From NCBI RefSeq assembly GCF_030013205.1, contig NZ_CP122648.1: a DNA stretch of 64,000 bases, one strand, 5' to 3'. This DNA is from Escherichia coli (GTDB lineage: Bacteria; Pseudomonadota; Gammaproteobacteria; Enterobacterales; Enterobacteriaceae). Position numbers: made by a program. Below are positions 33,001 through 39,000 of the stretch, piece by piece (within the stretch, counting starts at the first letter, position 1; the number at the start of each line of letters is the position of its first letter).

Positions 33001-36000
33001 GCGCCTGGGAAAAACCGATGGTGTAAAGCCCGTCCGGAACAGACTGTCATGAATGACACACACGAACGGGCTGTTCCGGGTGATTCTAATCTGTATCACT
33101 TTTACTGCTTTGTATGAATGGTGAGAATATGAAAATCATTTGCCTCGAAGAACATTATCTCGACAGCGAGTTAGGGCGAGCGTGTATGCCTGTTGCGCTT
33201 GAGCAGGCACCTTTCCTTGGCGACTGGGGGAAAACCGTCGCTGATGGTCATAATCCTGACCGACTCCCTGCTTTCCCGCTTTAATAAACTGAATGTGCCA
33301 CTCTATCTTCATCCCGGGTTACCGCTTAAAAGCGTACAGCAGGCCTACTTCACGGGCTTCAGCGCAGAGGTCAACGCCAGGCTTTCTATGTTTGCCTGGG
33401 GCTGGCATCACGAAGCGGGGATCCATTTGTTGCGGCTGATGTTATCGGGCGCATTTGATAAATATCCCAACCTGCAGGTAATCAGTGGCCACTGGGGGGA
33501 GATGTTACCCTTCTGGCTCCAGCGTCTTGATGACAGCCTACCACTGGCTGCAACGGGTCTGTCACGCACGCTAACGAGAACCTTCCAGGAACACGTTTAC
33601 GTTACCCCGCCATATGCTAACACTGCCGCACTTCCAGTTTATCTACGCGTTAATGGGTGCTGAAAGGATCCTGTTCTCCGTCGATTATCCCTATCAGACC
33701 CTGGACGGTGTAAAAACCTTTATAGACAGTCTGCCCGTCAACAAGGCTGAAAAAGAGGCCATCGCATTTCGCAATGCAGAACGTTTACTGGGCATCACGG
33801 CGTAGTTCACGGGTTCGTGATGACCGGTACAATGAGAACAGTTGACCATTATTAGTTTTTGTCTAAAAGTGAATGAGTCTTTACTGCTCTAAAAAAATAA
33901 TGTTGTCACTCTATACTGGATTTAATATTCACCAAAGATGTTTAACTGATTGAAATGAAAAATATCCTTGTTATTTCAGGTCATCCTGAGCTTACCCATT
34001 CCGTCGCCAATGCCACTATTCTTGATGAAGTGGAGACCGCCCTTCCTGATGTTGAGATTCGTCGTCTGGACAGGCTCTATCCGGATGGCAAATTCAACAT
34101 CGCGGCGGAGCAGGAAAGCCTGCTCAGGGCCGATGTGATTGTCTGGCAGTTCCCTTTTTCCTGGTATGGGCTGCCAGGATTAATGAAAAAATGGCTGGAC
34201 GAGGTCTTTGTTCACGGCTTCGCGCATGGCTCAACGGCGAAACTGGGCGGTAAAAAGCTGATCCTCTCCTTTACAACGGGAGCGCCAGAGGAGCTCTATA
34301 CCGTCGACAGTTTCTTTGGCCATACCATTGAAGAGTATCTTATTCCGTTCGAAACCACGGCAAGGCTGTGCAATCTTGAGCTGCTGACGCCGGTTTATAC
34401 CTGCGGTATCAGCTATGCCGACCGGGATGCCGACAAAATCGCGCAGCAAAAAACGCTTGCCCGGGAACACGCTTCAAGGCTTGTCGAACTGCTCAATTCC
34501 GTCGTGAATAATCCAGAGGGAGAATAACAATGCAGTATACCCGGCTCGGTAAAAGTGACTTACTTGTTTCCCGCATCTGCATGGGATGCATGGGGTTTGG
34601 CGATCCGTCGACGGGTCAGCATAGCTGGACGCTGGACGAAACAGCAAGCCGCGACATCATTCGCTATGGCCTTGAAAAGGGCATCAACTTTTACGATACC
34701 GCTATAGCCTACCAGAATGGCTCCAGTGAGCGATACGTTGGCCGGGCATTACGGGAGATGGCGAAACGCGATGATATCGTCCTGGCCACCAAGTTTCTGC
34801 CGCGAACCCCCGCACAAATTGCCGGAGGGATCAGCGGAAAAGAGGCAATCGCTCAATCCCTTGACCAGAGCCTGAAGAATCTGGGGATGGACTATATCGA
34901 CCTCTACATCTACCACATCTGGGATTACAACACGCCCATTATCGACGTGCTTGAAGCGTTACATACCGCTGTTACTGCTGGCAAAGTACGAGCTGTTGGT
35001 ATTTCAAACTGCTATGCCTGGCAGCTGGCGAAGGCGAACGCCCTTGCTGAACGCGAAGGGCTGACGCCCTTTGTTTCCGTACAGAGCCACTACAATCTAA
35101 TTATGCGCGAAGATGAACGGGAGCTCTTCGGCCTGTGCACTGAGGATAATATCGCAATGACCCCCTATAGCGCGCTGGCCAGCGGCCGCCTCTCTCGTAA
35201 AGAAGGCTATACACGGCGAGCCACAGAGGATGACTATGCGCGTGGAAAATATGACAGCACGGCTGAACAGGATCGCAGCATTATTGAGCGTGTAGCCGAA
35301 CTGGCCGAACGCCATCTGGTGTCAATGACGGAAATATCTCTCGCTTGGCTGCTGACAAAAGTCACATCACCTGTCGTAGGGGCTACAAAAAAAGCTCATG
35401 TCGATGGCGCGGTAAACGCAGTAAATCTTCAACTAAGTCCGGAGGAAATTCAGTTTCTGGAAGAAACCTACCAGCCGCATGTTCTGACGGGGATCATGGC
35501 GCAAAATACGCCGCAAACGAAAGATGTTAAGCAGGTCTGGATGCGATAGCCCTTATTCACTTTTCCTCCTCTCGTCTTTGAGAGCGCCAGTAGCGGTCGG
35601 TTACGTTCTTACCAGCACCAGTTGATCGAACGTCTTAAACAGTAACGTCAGTAAAAAGATCATCGTGAAAAAGACTTTTATGCTTTTAATTTGCATGCTA
35701 ATAAGCAGCCCTGTCTTTGCAACAAAACCGGACGCGCCGAATAAGTCGGAGATGAATATCTTCGAGCTCGGCATCAGACCCGATCGGGACAACGACTTTG
35801 CAGACGTGGCCAGACAGACGATTTCCGCTTCGGTTGATCATGAAGCAGGTACACTGGCGATGTATGCCCTGCAACGCAGCGACAATTCAGGTCAGGCATT
35901 CATGTTCGAACTCTATGAAAATGAGCGTGCTTATCGCAAACATCTCAATGCCGCCCCATACAAAGCATTCGCTGCTCGTGCACCTGACATTATTGACAGG

Positions 36001-39000
36001 AAGAAGAAAATTACCCTGGAGCCACAGTTTCTGGGCGACAAACACATCATACCGAATGAACGAACTATCAATAATCTGGTGATCGTCGAAGTAAAGCCTG
36101 AATTTCAGAGCGAATTTAGAAACATCGTCCTTCCTGAAATGGTCGAGTCGCTCAAAGTAGAGAAAGGCGTGTTAGCCATGTATGCCGGTACAGATTCAGA
36201 GACTCCAAAACGCTGGTATTTCTATGAGATTTACGCCAGTGAGGAGGATTATCAACTGCACCGACAAACGCTGCACTTCCTGGATTACCTCAGGCAAACG
36301 GCGCATATGAGCGCCAGGAAGGACGCAATCCCGGTAAAACCGGTATTTCTTCGTAACAAAGGCGGAATCAAACAGGAGCCGCAACGTTGACCAGTAAGGA
36401 TTAACATGAAAAGCGTACTTGCAGCAGCGGCTATGTCGCTTGTTATTTCTGATTTTGCCAATGCTGAGGAAACAAGAGGTAAAGCTATGATGAAAATAGA
36501 ACCGTCAGCGATTTCGGAAGCTGATATTCGTTCCGTCTCACCGGCTCTCGCGCGCTTTGGTCGCGAAGCTATTACTGAAGATCTGTGGACACGCGACGCC
36601 CTCTCACCGAGGGATCGTAGTGTGGTGACCGTCGCCATGCTGATTGCCCGCAACCAGCCTGCCGAGCTTAAGCACTATATTGACGTCGCTCTCGATAGCG
36701 GCGTGACGCCAGCGGAATTATCAGAAATCATTACCCATCTGGCGTTCTACTCAGGTTGGCCAAATGCAATGTCAGCCGTCAGCGTGATCAAAGCAGTATT
36801 TGAAACTCGTGGCGTCACGGCAGATGCACTTCCTGAAGCTTCTCCGGACCTGCTTCCTCTCAATCAGGAAGCAGAAAAGCAGCGTTCAGAGACAGTGGAA
36901 AAAAATGTTGGCCCAATATCTCCAGGCCTGGTTAAATTCACTGCTGATCCACTCTTCCTGGATCTCTGGCAAAGACCCGCGCTGAAACCCCGCGACAGAA
37001 GCCTGATTACGGTCAGCGCCTTAATCGCATCCGGACAGAGCGCGCAGATTGGCTATCACCTCAATAGAGCAATGGATAATGGACTTTCGGTGAGATCGTT
37101 ACCCAGGCCGCCTTCTATGCTGGCTGGCCAAACGCATTTACCGCTGCTCCGGTTGTGGGAGAGGTGCTAAACAATCGATCATCGAGTAAAAGGTAACATT
37201 ACTGAACACTAAAACCTGACGCACATCACAAAATTAGAACGATCAGTTCATGAACCAACAGACGTGACATCGAGTGATTTATGGACAGCGTTTAACACAG
37301 TTATGAACCAAAACTGAGTTCATAACTGTGAGTTTGAATCGTCATTTGATTAATATCCATTTAAAACAGTTTGTTATGCTGTTTCTGGTGCTGAAGTCAA
37401 TTATGTATATCCCTCAAACCCAGAATAGTTAAATGGAATTTGAGTGATGCGAAGCGATTTTACGGTCGTCGTTATTACTTCAGGGTTCCAGAACATAAAG
37501 CCTCTCCTCTTTCATGATTGGCCTGTGCATACCTGATATAGGCTGGCTGGTATGCAGGTTTGCCGTTTGCCGCATCTTCCCTGCGTTGAAGAGTCAGGCT
37601 GGCAAACCGCGTGCAAATGAACACCCCCTCTTTCCATCAACAATTCAGACAGCTTGCGGGAATGAGTCCACTCCGGTATCAGAAATGGCTACGCCTCAAT
37701 GAAGCCAGGCGACTGATGCTGAATGAACATTACGATGTCACCACTGCAGCCTATGCTGTCGGTTACGAAAGCTTATCCCATTTCAGTCGGGAATATTCGC
37801 GGATGTTTGGAGAGTCACCTAAGAGAGATATTACCAGGTTAAGAAAGTCTGTCGGTCAGCTTTAATAAACCCTGCACTTATCTGTTTAGAGCAATTCCGT
37901 GTTAGTTACACCAGGCAAACATTAACCATAGCTAATGTTTTATAGCCATATAAACCATTGGCCGCTCTTGACCTTTCCTGACACTTCCCTTGTTCGCAAT
38001 AATATTCTGTTTAGTCGCTGTTTATAAATAACATGCATAATGAAATCGTAATGTTATTTAGCGACATAAAATGTCTTTGCAAATACTCTCTACAACAAGT
38101 GCTGCAATAAACTTGTTGTGATTAGGTGTCCTTGTAATTTAAAGATATTATCGTTCTTCGTGAAATGTAATAACCCTGGAACTATATTCTCAGGGCAATA
38201 TCCCATCAAGAATGATTCTTGTTTTATAAGCAATAACAGAATGACTTAATTGTTAACTTTCTTTATTCAGCTACTTAAATATAAATTTTGGAGAATTATG
38301 AAACTCAAACATGTCGGTATGATTGTCGTTTCTGTGTTGGCGATGTCGTCTGCTGCGGTAAGCGCAGCCGAGGGTGATGAATCAGTAACGACCACTGTTA
38401 ATGGCGGTGTTATTCATTTTAAAGGTGAAGTGGTAAATGCCGCTTGTGCGATTGATTCAGAATCAATGAACCAAACGGTTGAGCTGGGTCAGGTCCGTTC
38501 TTCTCGTCTGGCTAAAGCGGGTGACCTCAGCTCCGCCGTTGGCTTCAATATCAAGCTGAATGATTGTGATACCAATGTTTCCAGTAATGCAGCTGTTGCA
38601 TTCCTGGGTACTACTGTCACCAGTAATGACGACACATTAGCGCTTCAGAGTTCAGCGGCAGGCTCTGCCCAAAATGTCGGTATTCAAATTTTGGACCGTA
38701 CGGGTGAGGTATTAATACTTGATGGTGCCACTTTTAGTGCTAAAACTGACTTGATTGATGGCACGAATATATTGCCGTTCCAGGCTAGATATATTGCTCT
38801 CGGGCAGTCAGTAGCTGGTACTGCAAACGCTGATGCGACCTTCAAAGTTCAATATCTATAATTCAATCTTAAGGTGGCTATACGTCATCTGAAATTGAAA
38901 CAGGGTGTGTGTGGCATGGCTACGCACACCCGAGCAATTCACCAATGTTCATCTCATTATTAATGAGGAATAGTTTGTGTTTTGGAGCGGTATGAAAAAA

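What the first reader, a model, noticed from the sequence alone, without database searches (positions are those of the whole stretch)
35665..37196. Adjacent signal-peptide-bearing tandem-domain proteins: ABM-ABM and CMD-CMD, predicted periplasmic
ABM (YgiN/ActVA-Orf6-type) and CMD (AhpD-type) domains are normally small cytoplasmic proteins. Here each is internally duplicated and each carries an apparent Sec signal peptide (MKKTFMLLICMLISSPVFA; MKSVLAAAAMSLVISDFANA). The genes are separated by only 15 bp, suggesting co-expression. An exported pair like this is unusual and could be a periplasmic quinol or peroxide handling couple.
Basis: partly seen in the sequence, partly recalled or inferred. 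Interest (0 to 1): 0.65.

Follow-up and report, generated by a model that had tools for sequence, protein, structure and literature searches.

The report
Exported double-domain ABM and CMD enzymes
Two neighbouring E. coli genes encode internally duplicated enzymes of normally cytoplasmic families that carry conserved export signals and so probably work in the periplasm, as part of an unstudied LysR-controlled operon of detoxification-type enzymes; in this strain one of the two is broken by a 13-base deletion.

Summary
Gene 1 (35665-36390) has two Pfam ABM domains. Gene 2 (from 36406) has two CMD domains. The gap between them is 15 bp. Both N-termini look like Sec signal peptides, and these features persist across distant orthologues.

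- The ABM signal peptide exists only if translation starts at GTG 35665. This start and its Shine-Dalgarno site are invariant in 12 species, but RefSeq annotates a later ATG.
- In this window the CMD gene carries a 13-bp deletion at 37088/37089. This frameshift destroys the end of the second domain, and RefSeq flags the gene as a pseudogene.

"AhpD-type/peroxide" is not supported. The CMD protein has no cysteine and resembles PcaC.

Both architectures already have uncharacterised crystal structures (3f44, 3mcs, 4g9q).

The genes end a LysR-controlled operon that also encodes a DJ-1-type protein, two AKRs, an Amidohydro_2 remnant and a KefF-like flavoprotein. About 9% of complete E. coli genomes carry it.

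ABM followed directly by CMD occurs only in Enterobacterales (11 of 51 proteobacterial ABM loci). Exported CMD next to exported ABM recurs in three of the rhizobial loci examined, and once as a predicted fusion.

Function is inferred, not shown: periplasmic, cofactor-free processing of a quinone-like or aromatic compound. I rate this moderately interesting, as a new variant of known kinds.

The parts
29983..30871 (-). Divergent LysR-family regulator of the operon, frameshifted in this window near 30410-30414
   Evidence: tblastn with the intact orthologue splits into frames -1 and -2. RefSeq flags it 'frameshifted' in the identical strain and shows it intact in strain Ecol_316.
31011..31319 (+). 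Small conserved protein (102-103 aa) of no recognised family, first cistron of the operon
   Evidence: No NCBIfam hit, and only a very weak YCII hit in Pfam (E 0.34). Conserved in the operon in 12 of 51 loci. The rhizobial homologue is annotated 'superoxide dismutase'.
31328..32017 (+). DJ-1/PfpI-type protein, no export signal
32079..33026 (+). Aldo/keto reductase 1, no export signal
33120..33799 (+). Remnants of an Amidohydro_2 gene (pseudogene). Residues 1-44, including the Tat signal, and residues 93-210 are missing; the rest lies in three frames.
   Evidence: tblastn with the intact 391-aa orthologue. Intact orthologues carry twin-arginine signals.
33955..34527 (+). Flavodoxin_2 NAD(P)H oxidoreductase, KefF-like, no export signal
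   Evidence: NCBIfam KefF model scores 149 bits, below the cut-off of 210. It is the most frequent neighbour of the ABM gene, in 33 of 51 loci. It lacks a signal in 33 of 35 cases.
34530..35549 (+). Aldo/keto reductase 2, no export signal
35654..35659 (+). Shine-Dalgarno site of the ABM gene (AAAAGA in E. coli, AAAGGA in most of the other species aligned)
   Evidence: 12-species DNA alignment. The same sequence is present in a second E. coli lineage.
35665..35721 (+). Signal peptide of the ABM protein (MKKTFMLLICMLISSPVFA, predicted cleavage VFA|TKP)
   Evidence: Heuristic with in-window controls. Conserved in orthologues. The GTG start is invariant and the later ATG is not conserved. The region is unstructured in the AlphaFold model.
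35665..36390 (+). Tandem ABM gene, intact, 241 aa from the GTG start
   Evidence: Two ABM domains. AlphaFold2 model has mean pLDDT 93, with ferredoxin-like halves at residues 29-125 (nt 35749-36039) and 135-231 (nt 36067-36357). Best structural matches are 3f44 and 3mcs.
36406..36465 (+). Signal peptide of the CMD protein (MKSVLAAAAMSLVISDFANA, predicted cleavage ANA|EET)
   Evidence: Residues 1-34 have pLDDT below 50 in the model.
36406..37170 (+). Tandem CMD gene as it reads in this window. The frame is correct to residue 229 (nt 37092), followed by 25 out-of-frame residues and a premature stop.
   Evidence: Pfam finds two CMD domains on the intact allele.
37088..37089 (+). Junction of the 13-bp deletion (TGTTGAGGAAGCT lost) that frameshifts the CMD gene
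   Evidence: Alignment with strain Ecol_316. The allele is present in about 23 of about 310 matching records.
37089..37196 (+). Out-of-frame remainder that encodes the true C-terminus of CMD domain 2 (GEIVTQAAFYAGWPNAFTAAPVVGEVLNNRSSSKR)
   Evidence: tblastn residues 233-267 at 100% identity in the other frame; translation of the intact allele.
37611..37865 (+). C-terminal fragment of a helix-turn-helix regulator at the right edge of the island
   Evidence: Annotated as partial, missing its N-terminus; ORF listed.

Best explanation
The two ORFs are the last two cistrons of a roughly 7-kb operon controlled by a divergent LysR regulator (window about 29983-37196). The operon lies between hipBA and a fimbrial operon.

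Shown:
- Gene 1 encodes a pseudo-dimeric ABM protein and gene 2 a pseudo-dimeric, PcaC-like CMD protein.
- Each has a short Sec-type signal peptide that is conserved across orthologues, so both are most likely soluble periplasmic proteins.
- The other operon products (a KefF-like flavoprotein reductase, two aldo/keto reductases, a DJ-1-type protein) have no export signal.
- The operon's amidohydrolase carries a Tat signal in many orthologues.
- In this strain the CMD gene, the LysR gene and the amidohydrolase gene are pseudogenes. Only the ABM half of the pair can be functional here.

Inferred:
- The operon deals with a redox-active aromatic or quinone-like small molecule on both sides of the inner membrane.
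- NAD(P)H-dependent reductases act in the cytoplasm.
- In the periplasm there is no NAD(P)H or ATP. There the ABM protein would carry out an O2-dependent, cofactor-free oxidation or isomerisation, as other ABM enzymes do. The CMD protein would carry out a cofactor-free decarboxylation or tautomerisation of a carboxylated or lactone product, as PcaC does.
- The closest analogy for the flavoprotein-plus-ABM link is the E. coli MdaB/YgiN quinone-quinol cycle, here split across the membrane.
For: Anatomy:
- Domain hits.
- Models and structural matches to 3f44, 3mcs and 4g9q.

Export:
- In-window controls for the signal-peptide heuristic.
- GTG start and Shine-Dalgarno site invariant in 12 species.
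- Where the N-terminus could be read, 46 of 48 proteobacterial ABM orthologues have a signal-like N-terminus, while all 29 Gram-positive homologues lack one.
- Lipoprotein variants of both families exist.
- CMD orthologues from Sinorhizobium, Pseudomonas, Sphingomonas, Caulobacter, Microvirga and Rhizobium all carry A-x-A|Q type signals. Their 'short' database entries start at an internal Met inside the signal peptide.
- The hydrophobic cores are 12-15 residues long, too short for a transmembrane helix (sequence).

Operon:
- Annotation and tblastn mapping.
- Partner counts over 51 proteobacterial ABM loci: Flavodoxin_2 in 33, LysR in 28, YCII in 24, AKR1 in 21, CMD directly downstream in 11.
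- The partners lack export signals.
- Tat motifs on the amidohydrolase.

Link between ABM and CMD beyond Enterobacterales:
- Exported CMD sits with an exported single-domain ABM in Sinorhizobium medicae, Bradyrhizobium barranii and Rhizobium rhizogenes.
- One predicted protein, P0434, reads signal-CMD-CMD-ABM.

Precedent:
- MdaB/YgiN, Adams and Jia 2005, as cited in reference 48 of PMC8765430.
Against: - No experiment on any member of either exported family was found.
- The substrate and the inducer are unknown.
- The ABM protein is not specifically YgiN-like by sequence. YgiN is absent from the PDB sequence hits, whereas LsrG is present.
- Each gene occurs without the other in most loci. Klebsiella operons have CMD without ABM. 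Pasteurellaceae and Neisseriaceae operons have ABM without CMD.
- Only about a third of 15 distinct CMD contexts contain an ABM gene within 6 kb (together).
- One rhizobial CMD paralogue beside an exported ABM lacks a signal.
- Localisation rests on sequence features only. No dedicated signal-peptide predictor was available, and my heuristic also passes the first helices of inner-membrane proteins (LsrD and GadC).
- The promoter and terminator scans were at chance level.
Confidence: 0.55

Rival explanations
1. The two genes are independent passengers of a modular operon. Both are exported, but they act on different substrates and are adjacent in Enterobacterales only by descent.
For: - ABM occurs without CMD in 38 of 51 proteobacterial loci.
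- CMD occurs without ABM in Klebsiella, Enterobacter soli, Pseudomonas orientalis, S. meliloti pSymA, Caballeronia, R. phaseoli, Microvirga, P. phymatum and Pararhizobium.
- The two proteins evolve at different rates in the shared loci: CMD 79-96% identity against ABM 55-86%.
- In this lineage the CMD gene is disrupted while the ABM gene remains intact.
Against: - The association recurs in three different arrangements in distant lineages: tandem ABM then CMD; CMD then single exported ABM; and one fusion.
- By my own rough estimate, not a computed control, that is more than chance would give for a domain found in only a few genes per genome.
Confidence: 0.3
2. The N-terminal hydrophobic stretches are not cleaved export signals. 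The proteins are either cytoplasmic, starting at downstream Met codons as RefSeq annotates for the ABM gene, or are anchored in the inner membrane.
For: - RefSeq starts the ABM gene at 35695.
- Many database entries for both families are N-terminally short.
- The E. coli Shine-Dalgarno site is weak (AAAAGA).
- My heuristic cannot separate signal peptides from first transmembrane helices.
Against: - The GTG start and Shine-Dalgarno site are invariant in 12 species, while the internal ATG is replaced by ATA, CTG or GTA in several of them.
- Signal-peptide features persist at 25-50% identity while the sequence itself is not conserved.
- Gram-positive homologues lack the extension altogether.
- The 'short' CMD entries keep the cleavage region and start inside the hydrophobic core.
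- The cores are 12-15 residues long and are followed by A-x-A.
Confidence: 0.08
3. This is the first reader's reading: a periplasmic AhpD-like peroxide or thiol-redox couple.
For: The CMD Pfam family includes AhpD. AhpD (1gu9) appears as a distant fold match.
Against: - The E. coli protein has no cysteine, and most orthologues have none, so the catalytic CxxC motif of AhpD cannot exist.
- No AhpD model was hit in NCBIfam; the hits are PcaC models.
- The periplasm offers no AhpC or lipoamide partner (general knowledge).
Confidence: 0.03
4. The tandem ABM protein is a periplasmic haem-binding or haem-degrading protein of the IsdG/HmoB kind.
For: ABM-fold haem oxygenases exist, and HmoB (4fvc) appears among the weaker fold matches.
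Against: - No haem or iron uptake gene was seen in any of the loci examined.
- The conserved neighbours are reductases.
- The structural match to HmoB is far weaker than to 3f44 and 3mcs.
Confidence: 0.04

Closest known systems
PDB 3f44 (Lactobacillus acidophilus) and 3mcs (Fusobacterium nucleatum FN1347), 'putative monooxygenase' structural-genomics entries
   Same: They share the same tandem ABM architecture in one chain. Sequence E-values are 6.6e-19 and 9.4e-26 over about 200 residues. Foldseek target-normalised TM-scores are 0.92-0.96.
   Different: The deposited chains have no N-terminal signal, and the Gram-positive homologues have none. Function is unknown for them too. Identity is about 25% in the structural alignment.
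PDB 4g9q, '4-carboxymuconolactone decarboxylase' of Sinorhizobium meliloti
   Same: It shares the same tandem CMD architecture: E 8.5e-74 over 238 residues, 51% identity in the structural alignment. Its natural orthologues carry a signal peptide (MKRLFAPLIGVMMMTASNAGA|QQP), so it belongs to the same exported family.
   Different: The crystallised construct starts at an internal Met inside the signal peptide. The name is by homology only; no activity data were found.
PcaC, 4-carboxymuconolactone decarboxylase of the protocatechuate branch of the beta-ketoadipate pathway (TIGR02425)
   Same: Each half of the CMD protein aligns with the PcaC model (E 7.9e-33), and the protein is cysteine-free.
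   Different: The score of 113 bits is below the curated cut-off of 155.7. The protein is a fused double domain with an export signal. No pca pathway gene is nearby. PcaC acts on a cytoplasmic intermediate (general knowledge).
E. coli MdaB/YgiN quinone reductase and quinol monooxygenase pair (Adams and Jia 2005, cited in PMC8765430 reference 48)
   Same: A flavoprotein NAD(P)H quinone-reductase-like gene is linked to an ABM gene. Here that link holds in 33 of 51 loci.
   Different: YgiN is a single-domain cytoplasmic homodimer and is not detectably similar by sequence. Here the ABM partner is a fused double domain and is exported, so the two would act in different compartments. The flavoprotein is KefF-like rather than MdaB.
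AhpD (Mycobacterium tuberculosis alkylhydroperoxidase, CMD family)
   Same: Same Pfam family and the same all-alpha fold class.
   Different: The CxxC catalytic motif is absent (no cysteine at all) and no AhpD model is matched.

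Membership tests
ABM (Pfam PF03992), dimeric alpha+beta barrel | Significant match to the family profile, here twice in one chain | tested here: met
   Two hits, E 4.7e-11 and 7.6e-12.
ABM (Pfam PF03992), dimeric alpha+beta barrel | Ferredoxin-like beta-alpha-beta fold, with two halves forming a pseudo-dimer | tested here: met
   AlphaFold2 pLDDT 93, with halves at residues 29-125 and 135-231. Target-normalised TM-score 0.92-0.96 to the tandem structures 3f44 and 3mcs.
YgiN / ActVA-Orf6-type quinol or anthrone monooxygenase | Specific sequence relationship to YgiN or ActVA-Orf6 | tested here: not met
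   The PDB sequence search at E <= 0.01 returns 3mcs, 3f44, 3kkf and LsrG only. YgiN and ActVA-Orf6 entries are absent. The best curated model is LsrG at 56 bits, against a cut-off of 135.
YgiN / ActVA-Orf6-type quinol or anthrone monooxygenase | Cofactor-free O2-dependent oxidation of a quinol or anthrone | not testable with these tools
   Needs an enzyme assay.
CMD (Pfam PF02627) | Significant match to the family profile, here twice in one chain | tested here: met
   Two hits, E 1.5e-16 and 2.9e-17, on the intact allele. In the window the second domain is cut by the frameshift.
AhpD-type alkylhydroperoxidase | Catalytic CxxC motif | tested here: not met
   Zero cysteines in the E. coli protein and in most orthologues.
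PcaC (TIGR02425 equivalog) | Score above the curated cut-off | tested here: not met
   113.2 bits against a cut-off of 155.7.
PcaC (TIGR02425 equivalog) | Genomic context of the protocatechuate / beta-ketoadipate pathway | tested here: not met
   The neighbours are LysR, DJ-1, AKRs, a flavoprotein and ABM. No pca genes are present.
Sec-exported (type I signal peptide) proteins | Positively charged start, hydrophobic core of about 10-15 residues, small residues at -3 and -1 | tested here: met
   ABM: charge +2, core TFMLLICMLISSPVF, site VFA|TKP. CMD: charge +1, core SVLAAAAMSLVI, site ANA|EET. These values are in the same range as 12 known exported proteins of the window. A dedicated predictor such as SignalP was not available.
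Sec-exported (type I signal peptide) proteins | Signal features conserved in orthologues while the sequence drifts | tested here: met
Sec-exported (type I signal peptide) proteins | Cleavage and periplasmic location observed | not testable with these tools
   Needs fusions, fractionation or N-terminal mass spectrometry.
Functionally coupled gene pair | Co-occurrence of the two genes in other genomes | tested here: inconclusive
   They are directly adjacent in 11 Enterobacterales species but absent together in the other 40 proteobacterial ABM loci, apart from 2 loci with CMD elsewhere in the locus. Exported CMD with a single exported ABM is found in 3 rhizobial loci, plus one fusion. CMD occurs without ABM in 10 other contexts.

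The most novel reading that the evidence does not exclude
Proteobacteria carry a widespread, undescribed class of LysR-controlled operons. These would split the handling of a toxic aromatic or quinone-like compound between cytoplasmic NAD(P)H reductases and a periplasmic, cofactor-free enzyme set made of families usually regarded as cytoplasmic: tandem or single ABM, tandem CMD, and in some lineages Tat-exported Amidohydro_2 or AKR, exported cupin, DUF1330 or Flavodoxin_2. In this reading the ABM and CMD proteins form consecutive steps of a periplasmic oxidative breakdown route.
Probability: 0.25. Interest if true: 0.6.

Novelty: new variant of a known kind. Interest (0 to 1): 0.4.

Why it matters
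ABM and CMD proteins are generally treated as small cytoplasmic enzymes, and I found no functional study of the exported double-domain forms in the library searched. If they really work in the periplasm, they would be enzymes that need neither nucleotide cofactors nor ATP to transform small aromatic or quinone-like molecules before these reach the cytoplasm. That would add a compartment to the usual picture of bacterial quinone and electrophile defence.

The family is large and is common in gut, plant-associated and oral bacteria.

There are also practical consequences for annotation. The RefSeq start of the E. coli ABM gene cuts off its signal peptide. Many CMD entries, including the construct behind PDB 4g9q, start inside the signal peptide.

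For this particular strain the matter is mostly historical, because the operon is decaying: the regulator, the amidohydrolase and the CMD gene are all broken.

Tried and rejected
- **Promoter and terminator scans** of 30300-38300 gave numbers at chance level and were not used.
- **Literature searches** found nothing on these proteins or this operon. I searched for exported ABM or CMD proteins, the RefSeq accessions, the operon's gene combination, tandem ABM domains, CMD proteins in outer-membrane-vesicle proteomes, and DUF2255. Two papers opened from the hit lists were irrelevant: a Novosphingobium ABM protein with no signal peptide detected, and a CxxC-type CMD controlled by an ECF sigma factor.
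A closer 8-sequence alignment worked.
- **Lipoprotein reading of the ABM signal** was rejected. The residue before the Cys is Ile, and the Cys is not conserved.
- **A truly signal-less CMD in Enterobacter-like genomes (P0135)** was rejected. The signal is present but is cut off by a stop codon at the cleavage site. P0231 (Enterobacter sp.) and one Rhizobium rhizogenes paralogue are genuinely signal-less.
- **The idea that every operon member is exported** was rejected. Flavodoxin_2, AKR, DJ-1, YCII and the small protein lack signals in nearly all ABM loci.
- **Base composition** gives no sign of foreign origin (GC about 0.50).
- **The marR frameshift** annotated in the nearly identical strain K_EC180 coincides with two indels (8 bases in all) by which the window differs from that strain, so I make no claim about it.

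Full report
**Where the window comes from.** The 1751 bases around the finding are 100% identical to the chromosomes of porcine enterotoxigenic and O139:H1 E. coli strains. Related sequence is present in 497 of 5426 complete E. coli genomes, almost always on the chromosome. In the annotated twin strain the two genes lie at the end of a block of genes between hipBA and a fimbrial operon that is followed by ydeP. The block reads: a divergent LysR regulator, then a 102-aa protein of no recognised family, a DJ-1/PfpI-type protein, an aldo/keto reductase, amidohydrolase fragments, a Flavodoxin_2 NAD(P)H oxidoreductase, a second aldo/keto reductase, the ABM gene and the CMD gene. A fragment of a helix-turn-helix regulator follows.

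**The observation.** It holds in its main points.
- The 241-aa ORF 35665-36390 has two Pfam ABM domains.
- The intact allele of the next gene has two CMD domains.
- The gap between the two genes is 15 bp.
- AlphaFold2 models show two ferredoxin-like halves for the ABM protein (pLDDT 93; residues 1-28 unstructured) and two all-alpha halves for the CMD protein (pLDDT 74; residues 1-34 below 50).
- Both architectures already exist in the Protein Data Bank as uncharacterised structural-genomics entries: 3f44 and 3mcs for the tandem ABM, and 4g9q for the tandem CMD.

- The CMD gene is broken in this window. Compared with strain Ecol_316, 13 bases (TGTTGAGGAAGCT) are missing after position 37088.
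- The reading frame is correct to residue 229, then gives 25 wrong residues and stops at 37170. It includes the conserved FYAGWPNA stretch of the second domain.
- RefSeq marks the gene 'frameshifted'. The deletion allele is found in about 23 of about 310 matching E. coli records, so it is a lineage-specific lesion.
- The LysR regulator is also frameshifted. The amidohydrolase gene is reduced to three fragments that lack the first 44 residues and residues 93-210. The operon is therefore decaying in this strain.

**Are the signal peptides real?** No dedicated predictor was available, so I used three lines of evidence.
- *Heuristic with in-window controls.* The heuristic scores N-terminal charge, the most hydrophobic 8-residue stretch and a small-x-small cleavage site. 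It puts both proteins with the known exported proteins of the same window (MarB, LsrB, five fimbrial proteins, YdeN, YddB, PqqL) and apart from the soluble cytoplasmic ones. It also passes the first helices of two inner-membrane proteins, so on its own it cannot exclude a membrane anchor. However, the hydrophobic cores here are only 12-15 residues long.
- *Start codon of the ABM gene.* The signal exists only if translation starts at GTG 35665. RefSeq starts at ATG 35695, inside the hydrophobic core. In a DNA alignment of 12 Enterobacterales species the GTG is invariant and is preceded by a conserved AAAGG Shine-Dalgarno site. The later ATG is replaced by ATA, CTG or GTA in several species.
- *Conservation of features.* I ran a genome scan over one genome per species with an ABM alignment. 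Where the N-terminus could be read, 46 of 48 proteobacterial homologues, down to 37% identity, have a signal-like N-terminus of quite different sequence. These came from Enterobacterales, Pasteurellaceae, Neisseriaceae, Acinetobacter and Cardiobacterium; the two exceptions have cut-off N-termini. All 29 Gram-positive homologues start a few residues before the first strand.
- *Further variants.* Among representatives at 50% identity there are also lipoprotein variants of the ABM protein.
- *The CMD family.* The Enterobacterales orthologues keep MK-hydrophobic-A-x-A|E. The homologues from Sinorhizobium, Pseudomonas, Sphingomonas and Caulobacter keep MK-hydrophobic-A-x-A|QQP. The many 'short' entries start at a Met inside the signal and still contain the cleavage region, so they are miscalled starts.
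- *PDB 4g9q.* The 4g9q construct itself begins at such an internal Met, whereas its full orthologue reads MKRLFAPLIGVMMMTASNAGA|QQP.
- *Other CMD homologues.* Homologues from Microvirga and Rhizobium have signals, and the one from Paraburkholderia has a lipoprotein signal.

I conclude that both proteins are exported, with the reservation that this rests on sequence alone.

**What kind of CMD and ABM are these?**
- The CMD protein has no cysteine, so the CxxC chemistry of AhpD is impossible.
- Its halves match the PcaC models of NCBIfam, but below the curated cut-off (113 against 155.7 bits). There are no pca genes nearby.
- The ABM protein is not specifically like YgiN or ActVA-Orf6. The only sequence relatives in the PDB are the two tandem structures, one Bacteroides ABM protein and LsrG.

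**Do the two genes travel together?**

*From the ABM side*, I counted partners over 51 proteobacterial loci.

| Feature near the ABM gene | Loci (of 51) |
|---|---|
| CMD directly downstream | 11 |
| CMD elsewhere in the locus | 2 |
| Flavodoxin_2 | 33 |
| LysR | 28 |
| YCII | 24 |
| AKR1 | 21 |
| Amidohydro_2 | 13 |

- All 11 loci with CMD directly downstream are Enterobacterales with at least 55% ABM identity: Enterobacter, Pantoea, Pectobacterium, Rahnella, Raoultella, Yersinia, Chimaeribacter, Serratia and Erwinia.
- The much more constant neighbours are therefore the other operon genes. Two metagenomic contigs show the same pattern.
- The cytoplasm-type partners almost never carry a signal. 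The amidohydrolase has a twin-arginine signal in Pasteurellaceae and in an Enterobacter-like operon.

*From the CMD side*:
- Klebsiella has the exported CMD in similar LysR-Flavodoxin_2 operons, in one case also with an AKR, but without any ABM gene.
- So do Pseudomonas orientalis and several rhizobial and Burkholderiales replicons.
- The association does recur in other forms. In Sinorhizobium medicae, the source of a close orthologue of the 4g9q protein, a LysR operon encodes a signal-bearing single ABM, a second ABM, a Tat-signal AKR, the exported CMD, DUF2255, an AKR, a GSDH-type dehydrogenase and an exported cupin.
- Bradyrhizobium barranii and Rhizobium rhizogenes plasmids have CMD with a signal-bearing single ABM close by.
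- One metagenomic protein, P0434, reads signal-CMD-CMD-ABM. It comes from a single contig and could be an assembly or frameshift artefact.
- Several proteins fuse a cupin to the exported CMD.
- Overall, about a third of the 15 distinct CMD contexts I examined contain an ABM gene within 6 kb.

That is suggestive of a functional link, but it is not an obligate pair.

**How it most likely works.**
- *Shown:* the domain architecture, the conserved export signals, membership in a LysR operon, the cytoplasmic nature of the reductase partners, and the broken state of three genes in this strain.
- *Inferred:* the operon handles a redox-active aromatic or quinone-like compound. The flavoprotein is KefF-like (149 bits, below the cut-off of 210). 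The two AKRs resemble methylglyoxal and aldehyde reductases, and DJ-1 proteins are glyoxalase-type enzymes. These are all families that reduce or detoxify quinones and reactive carbonyls using NAD(P)H, which exists only in the cytoplasm.
- *Why ABM and CMD suit the periplasm:* ABM enzymes use O2 directly on an activated substrate or act as isomerases. PcaC-type CMD enzymes decarboxylate without a cofactor (established knowledge of these families). These are the kinds of catalyst that can work in the periplasm.
- *Precedent:* the nearest precedent for a flavoprotein-ABM link is the MdaB/YgiN quinone-quinol cycle of E. coli (Adams and Jia 2005, cited in PMC8765430). Here the two halves would sit on opposite sides of the membrane.
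- *Confidence:* I put about 0.55 on the overall picture, and much less on any particular substrate.

**Rivals.**

| Rival | Confidence |
|---|---|
| Both proteins are exported but functionally independent | 0.3 |
| The hydrophobic N-termini are not cleaved signals | 0.08 |
| Periplasmic haem-handling ABM | 0.04 |
| AhpD-like peroxide couple (fails on the missing CxxC) | 0.03 |

**Novelty and interest.**
- The genes are annotated in RefSeq and their folds are solved, so nothing here is categorically new.
- What is not described, as far as the searchable literature goes, is that these double-domain forms are systematically exported in Proteobacteria and sit in LysR operons with cytoplasmic reductases.
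- I class it as a new variant of known kinds and rate interest at 0.4.
- It is a real and testable lead. It is weakened for this window by the pseudogenes, and in general by the absence of any functional data.

Noticed in passing
window 35665-35697: RefSeq starts the ABM gene (WP_000909118.1, 231 aa) at ATG 35695, inside the signal peptide. The GTG at 35665 and its Shine-Dalgarno site are invariant across 12 species. Database entries of 212, 231, 236 and 241 aa reflect different start calls.
   Followed up: yes
PDB 4g9q; proteins P0391-P0510: The crystallised S. meliloti tandem CMD construct begins at an internal Met of the natural signal peptide. About half of the 120 closest database homologues are likewise called too short but keep the A-x-A|QQP cleavage region.
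   Followed up: yes
window 33120-33799; L092:3141-4316; L034-L043: The operon's Amidohydro_2 gene is a three-fragment pseudogene in E. coli. Intact orthologues carry twin-arginine (Tat) signals, for example ERRDLIKKGVGALAWAAL and NRRQFLTQSAV, so this enzyme is probably periplasmic too. Pantoea and Rahnella versions lack the signal.
   Followed up: partly
window 29983-30871 (- strand): The LysR regulator of the operon is frameshifted near 30410-30414 in this lineage but is intact in strain Ecol_316.
   Followed up: partly
L092:6920-7001: In one Enterobacter-like lineage (cluster P0135, 46 member sequences) a stop codon sits exactly at the signal-peptide cleavage site of the CMD gene (FANA*ETRG). 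This leaves a 240-aa ORF that starts at the next Met.
   Followed up: partly
P0434 (JGI metagenome 3300078620); P0504, P0505, P0507; L105:6001-7206: Predicted fusion proteins occur: signal + CMD-CMD + ABM (one contig only), signal + cupin + CMD-CMD, and signal + CMD-CMD + cupin.
   Followed up: partly
L096:4754-5926; L090:6383-6979 and 7806-8240; L100:7149-7544; L031; L098:3791-4873: Other normally cytoplasmic families in these operons sometimes carry export signals:
- a Tat-signal aldo/keto reductase in Sinorhizobium medicae;
- Sec-signal Flavodoxin_2 proteins in Klebsiella and Propionivibrio;
- an exported Cyclophil_like2 protein, a DUF1330 protein and a cupin;
- a Tat-signal alpha/beta hydrolase.

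   Followed up: partly
L095:5863-5982: In Pseudomonas orientalis a 39-codon ORF that is nothing but a Tat signal peptide (DRRNFLIAGSGVLLAATSFAFS, then a stop) lies directly upstream of the exported CMD gene.
   Followed up: no
L096:3806-4731: In Sinorhizobium medicae a signal-bearing ABM gene that resembles the second half of the tandem protein is followed, 15 bp later and in another frame, by an ORF that resembles the first half. This could be two genes or a split, permuted tandem gene.
   Followed up: no
window about 13780-14070 (- strand): lsrG, a single-domain cytoplasmic ABM protein, lies in the same window within the lsr operon. Its NCBIfam model is the best, though sub-threshold, curated hit of the tandem ABM protein.
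   Followed up: no
window about 52130-54600: An ABC transporter gene upstream of yddB is split by an IS1 element in the twin strain. ydeM and the ECSE_1600-family autotransporter gene are annotated as frameshifted there. These were not re-checked base by base in the window.
   Followed up: no
window 1076-1094, 23670, 23955, 25860, 29821, 40317, 48619, 51045: The window differs from the annotated twin strain K_EC180 by several small indels. These include 8 bases in marR, which is flagged as frameshifted in K_EC180, and 1 base in the fimbrial usher gene, which is intact (883 aa) in the window.
   Followed up: partly
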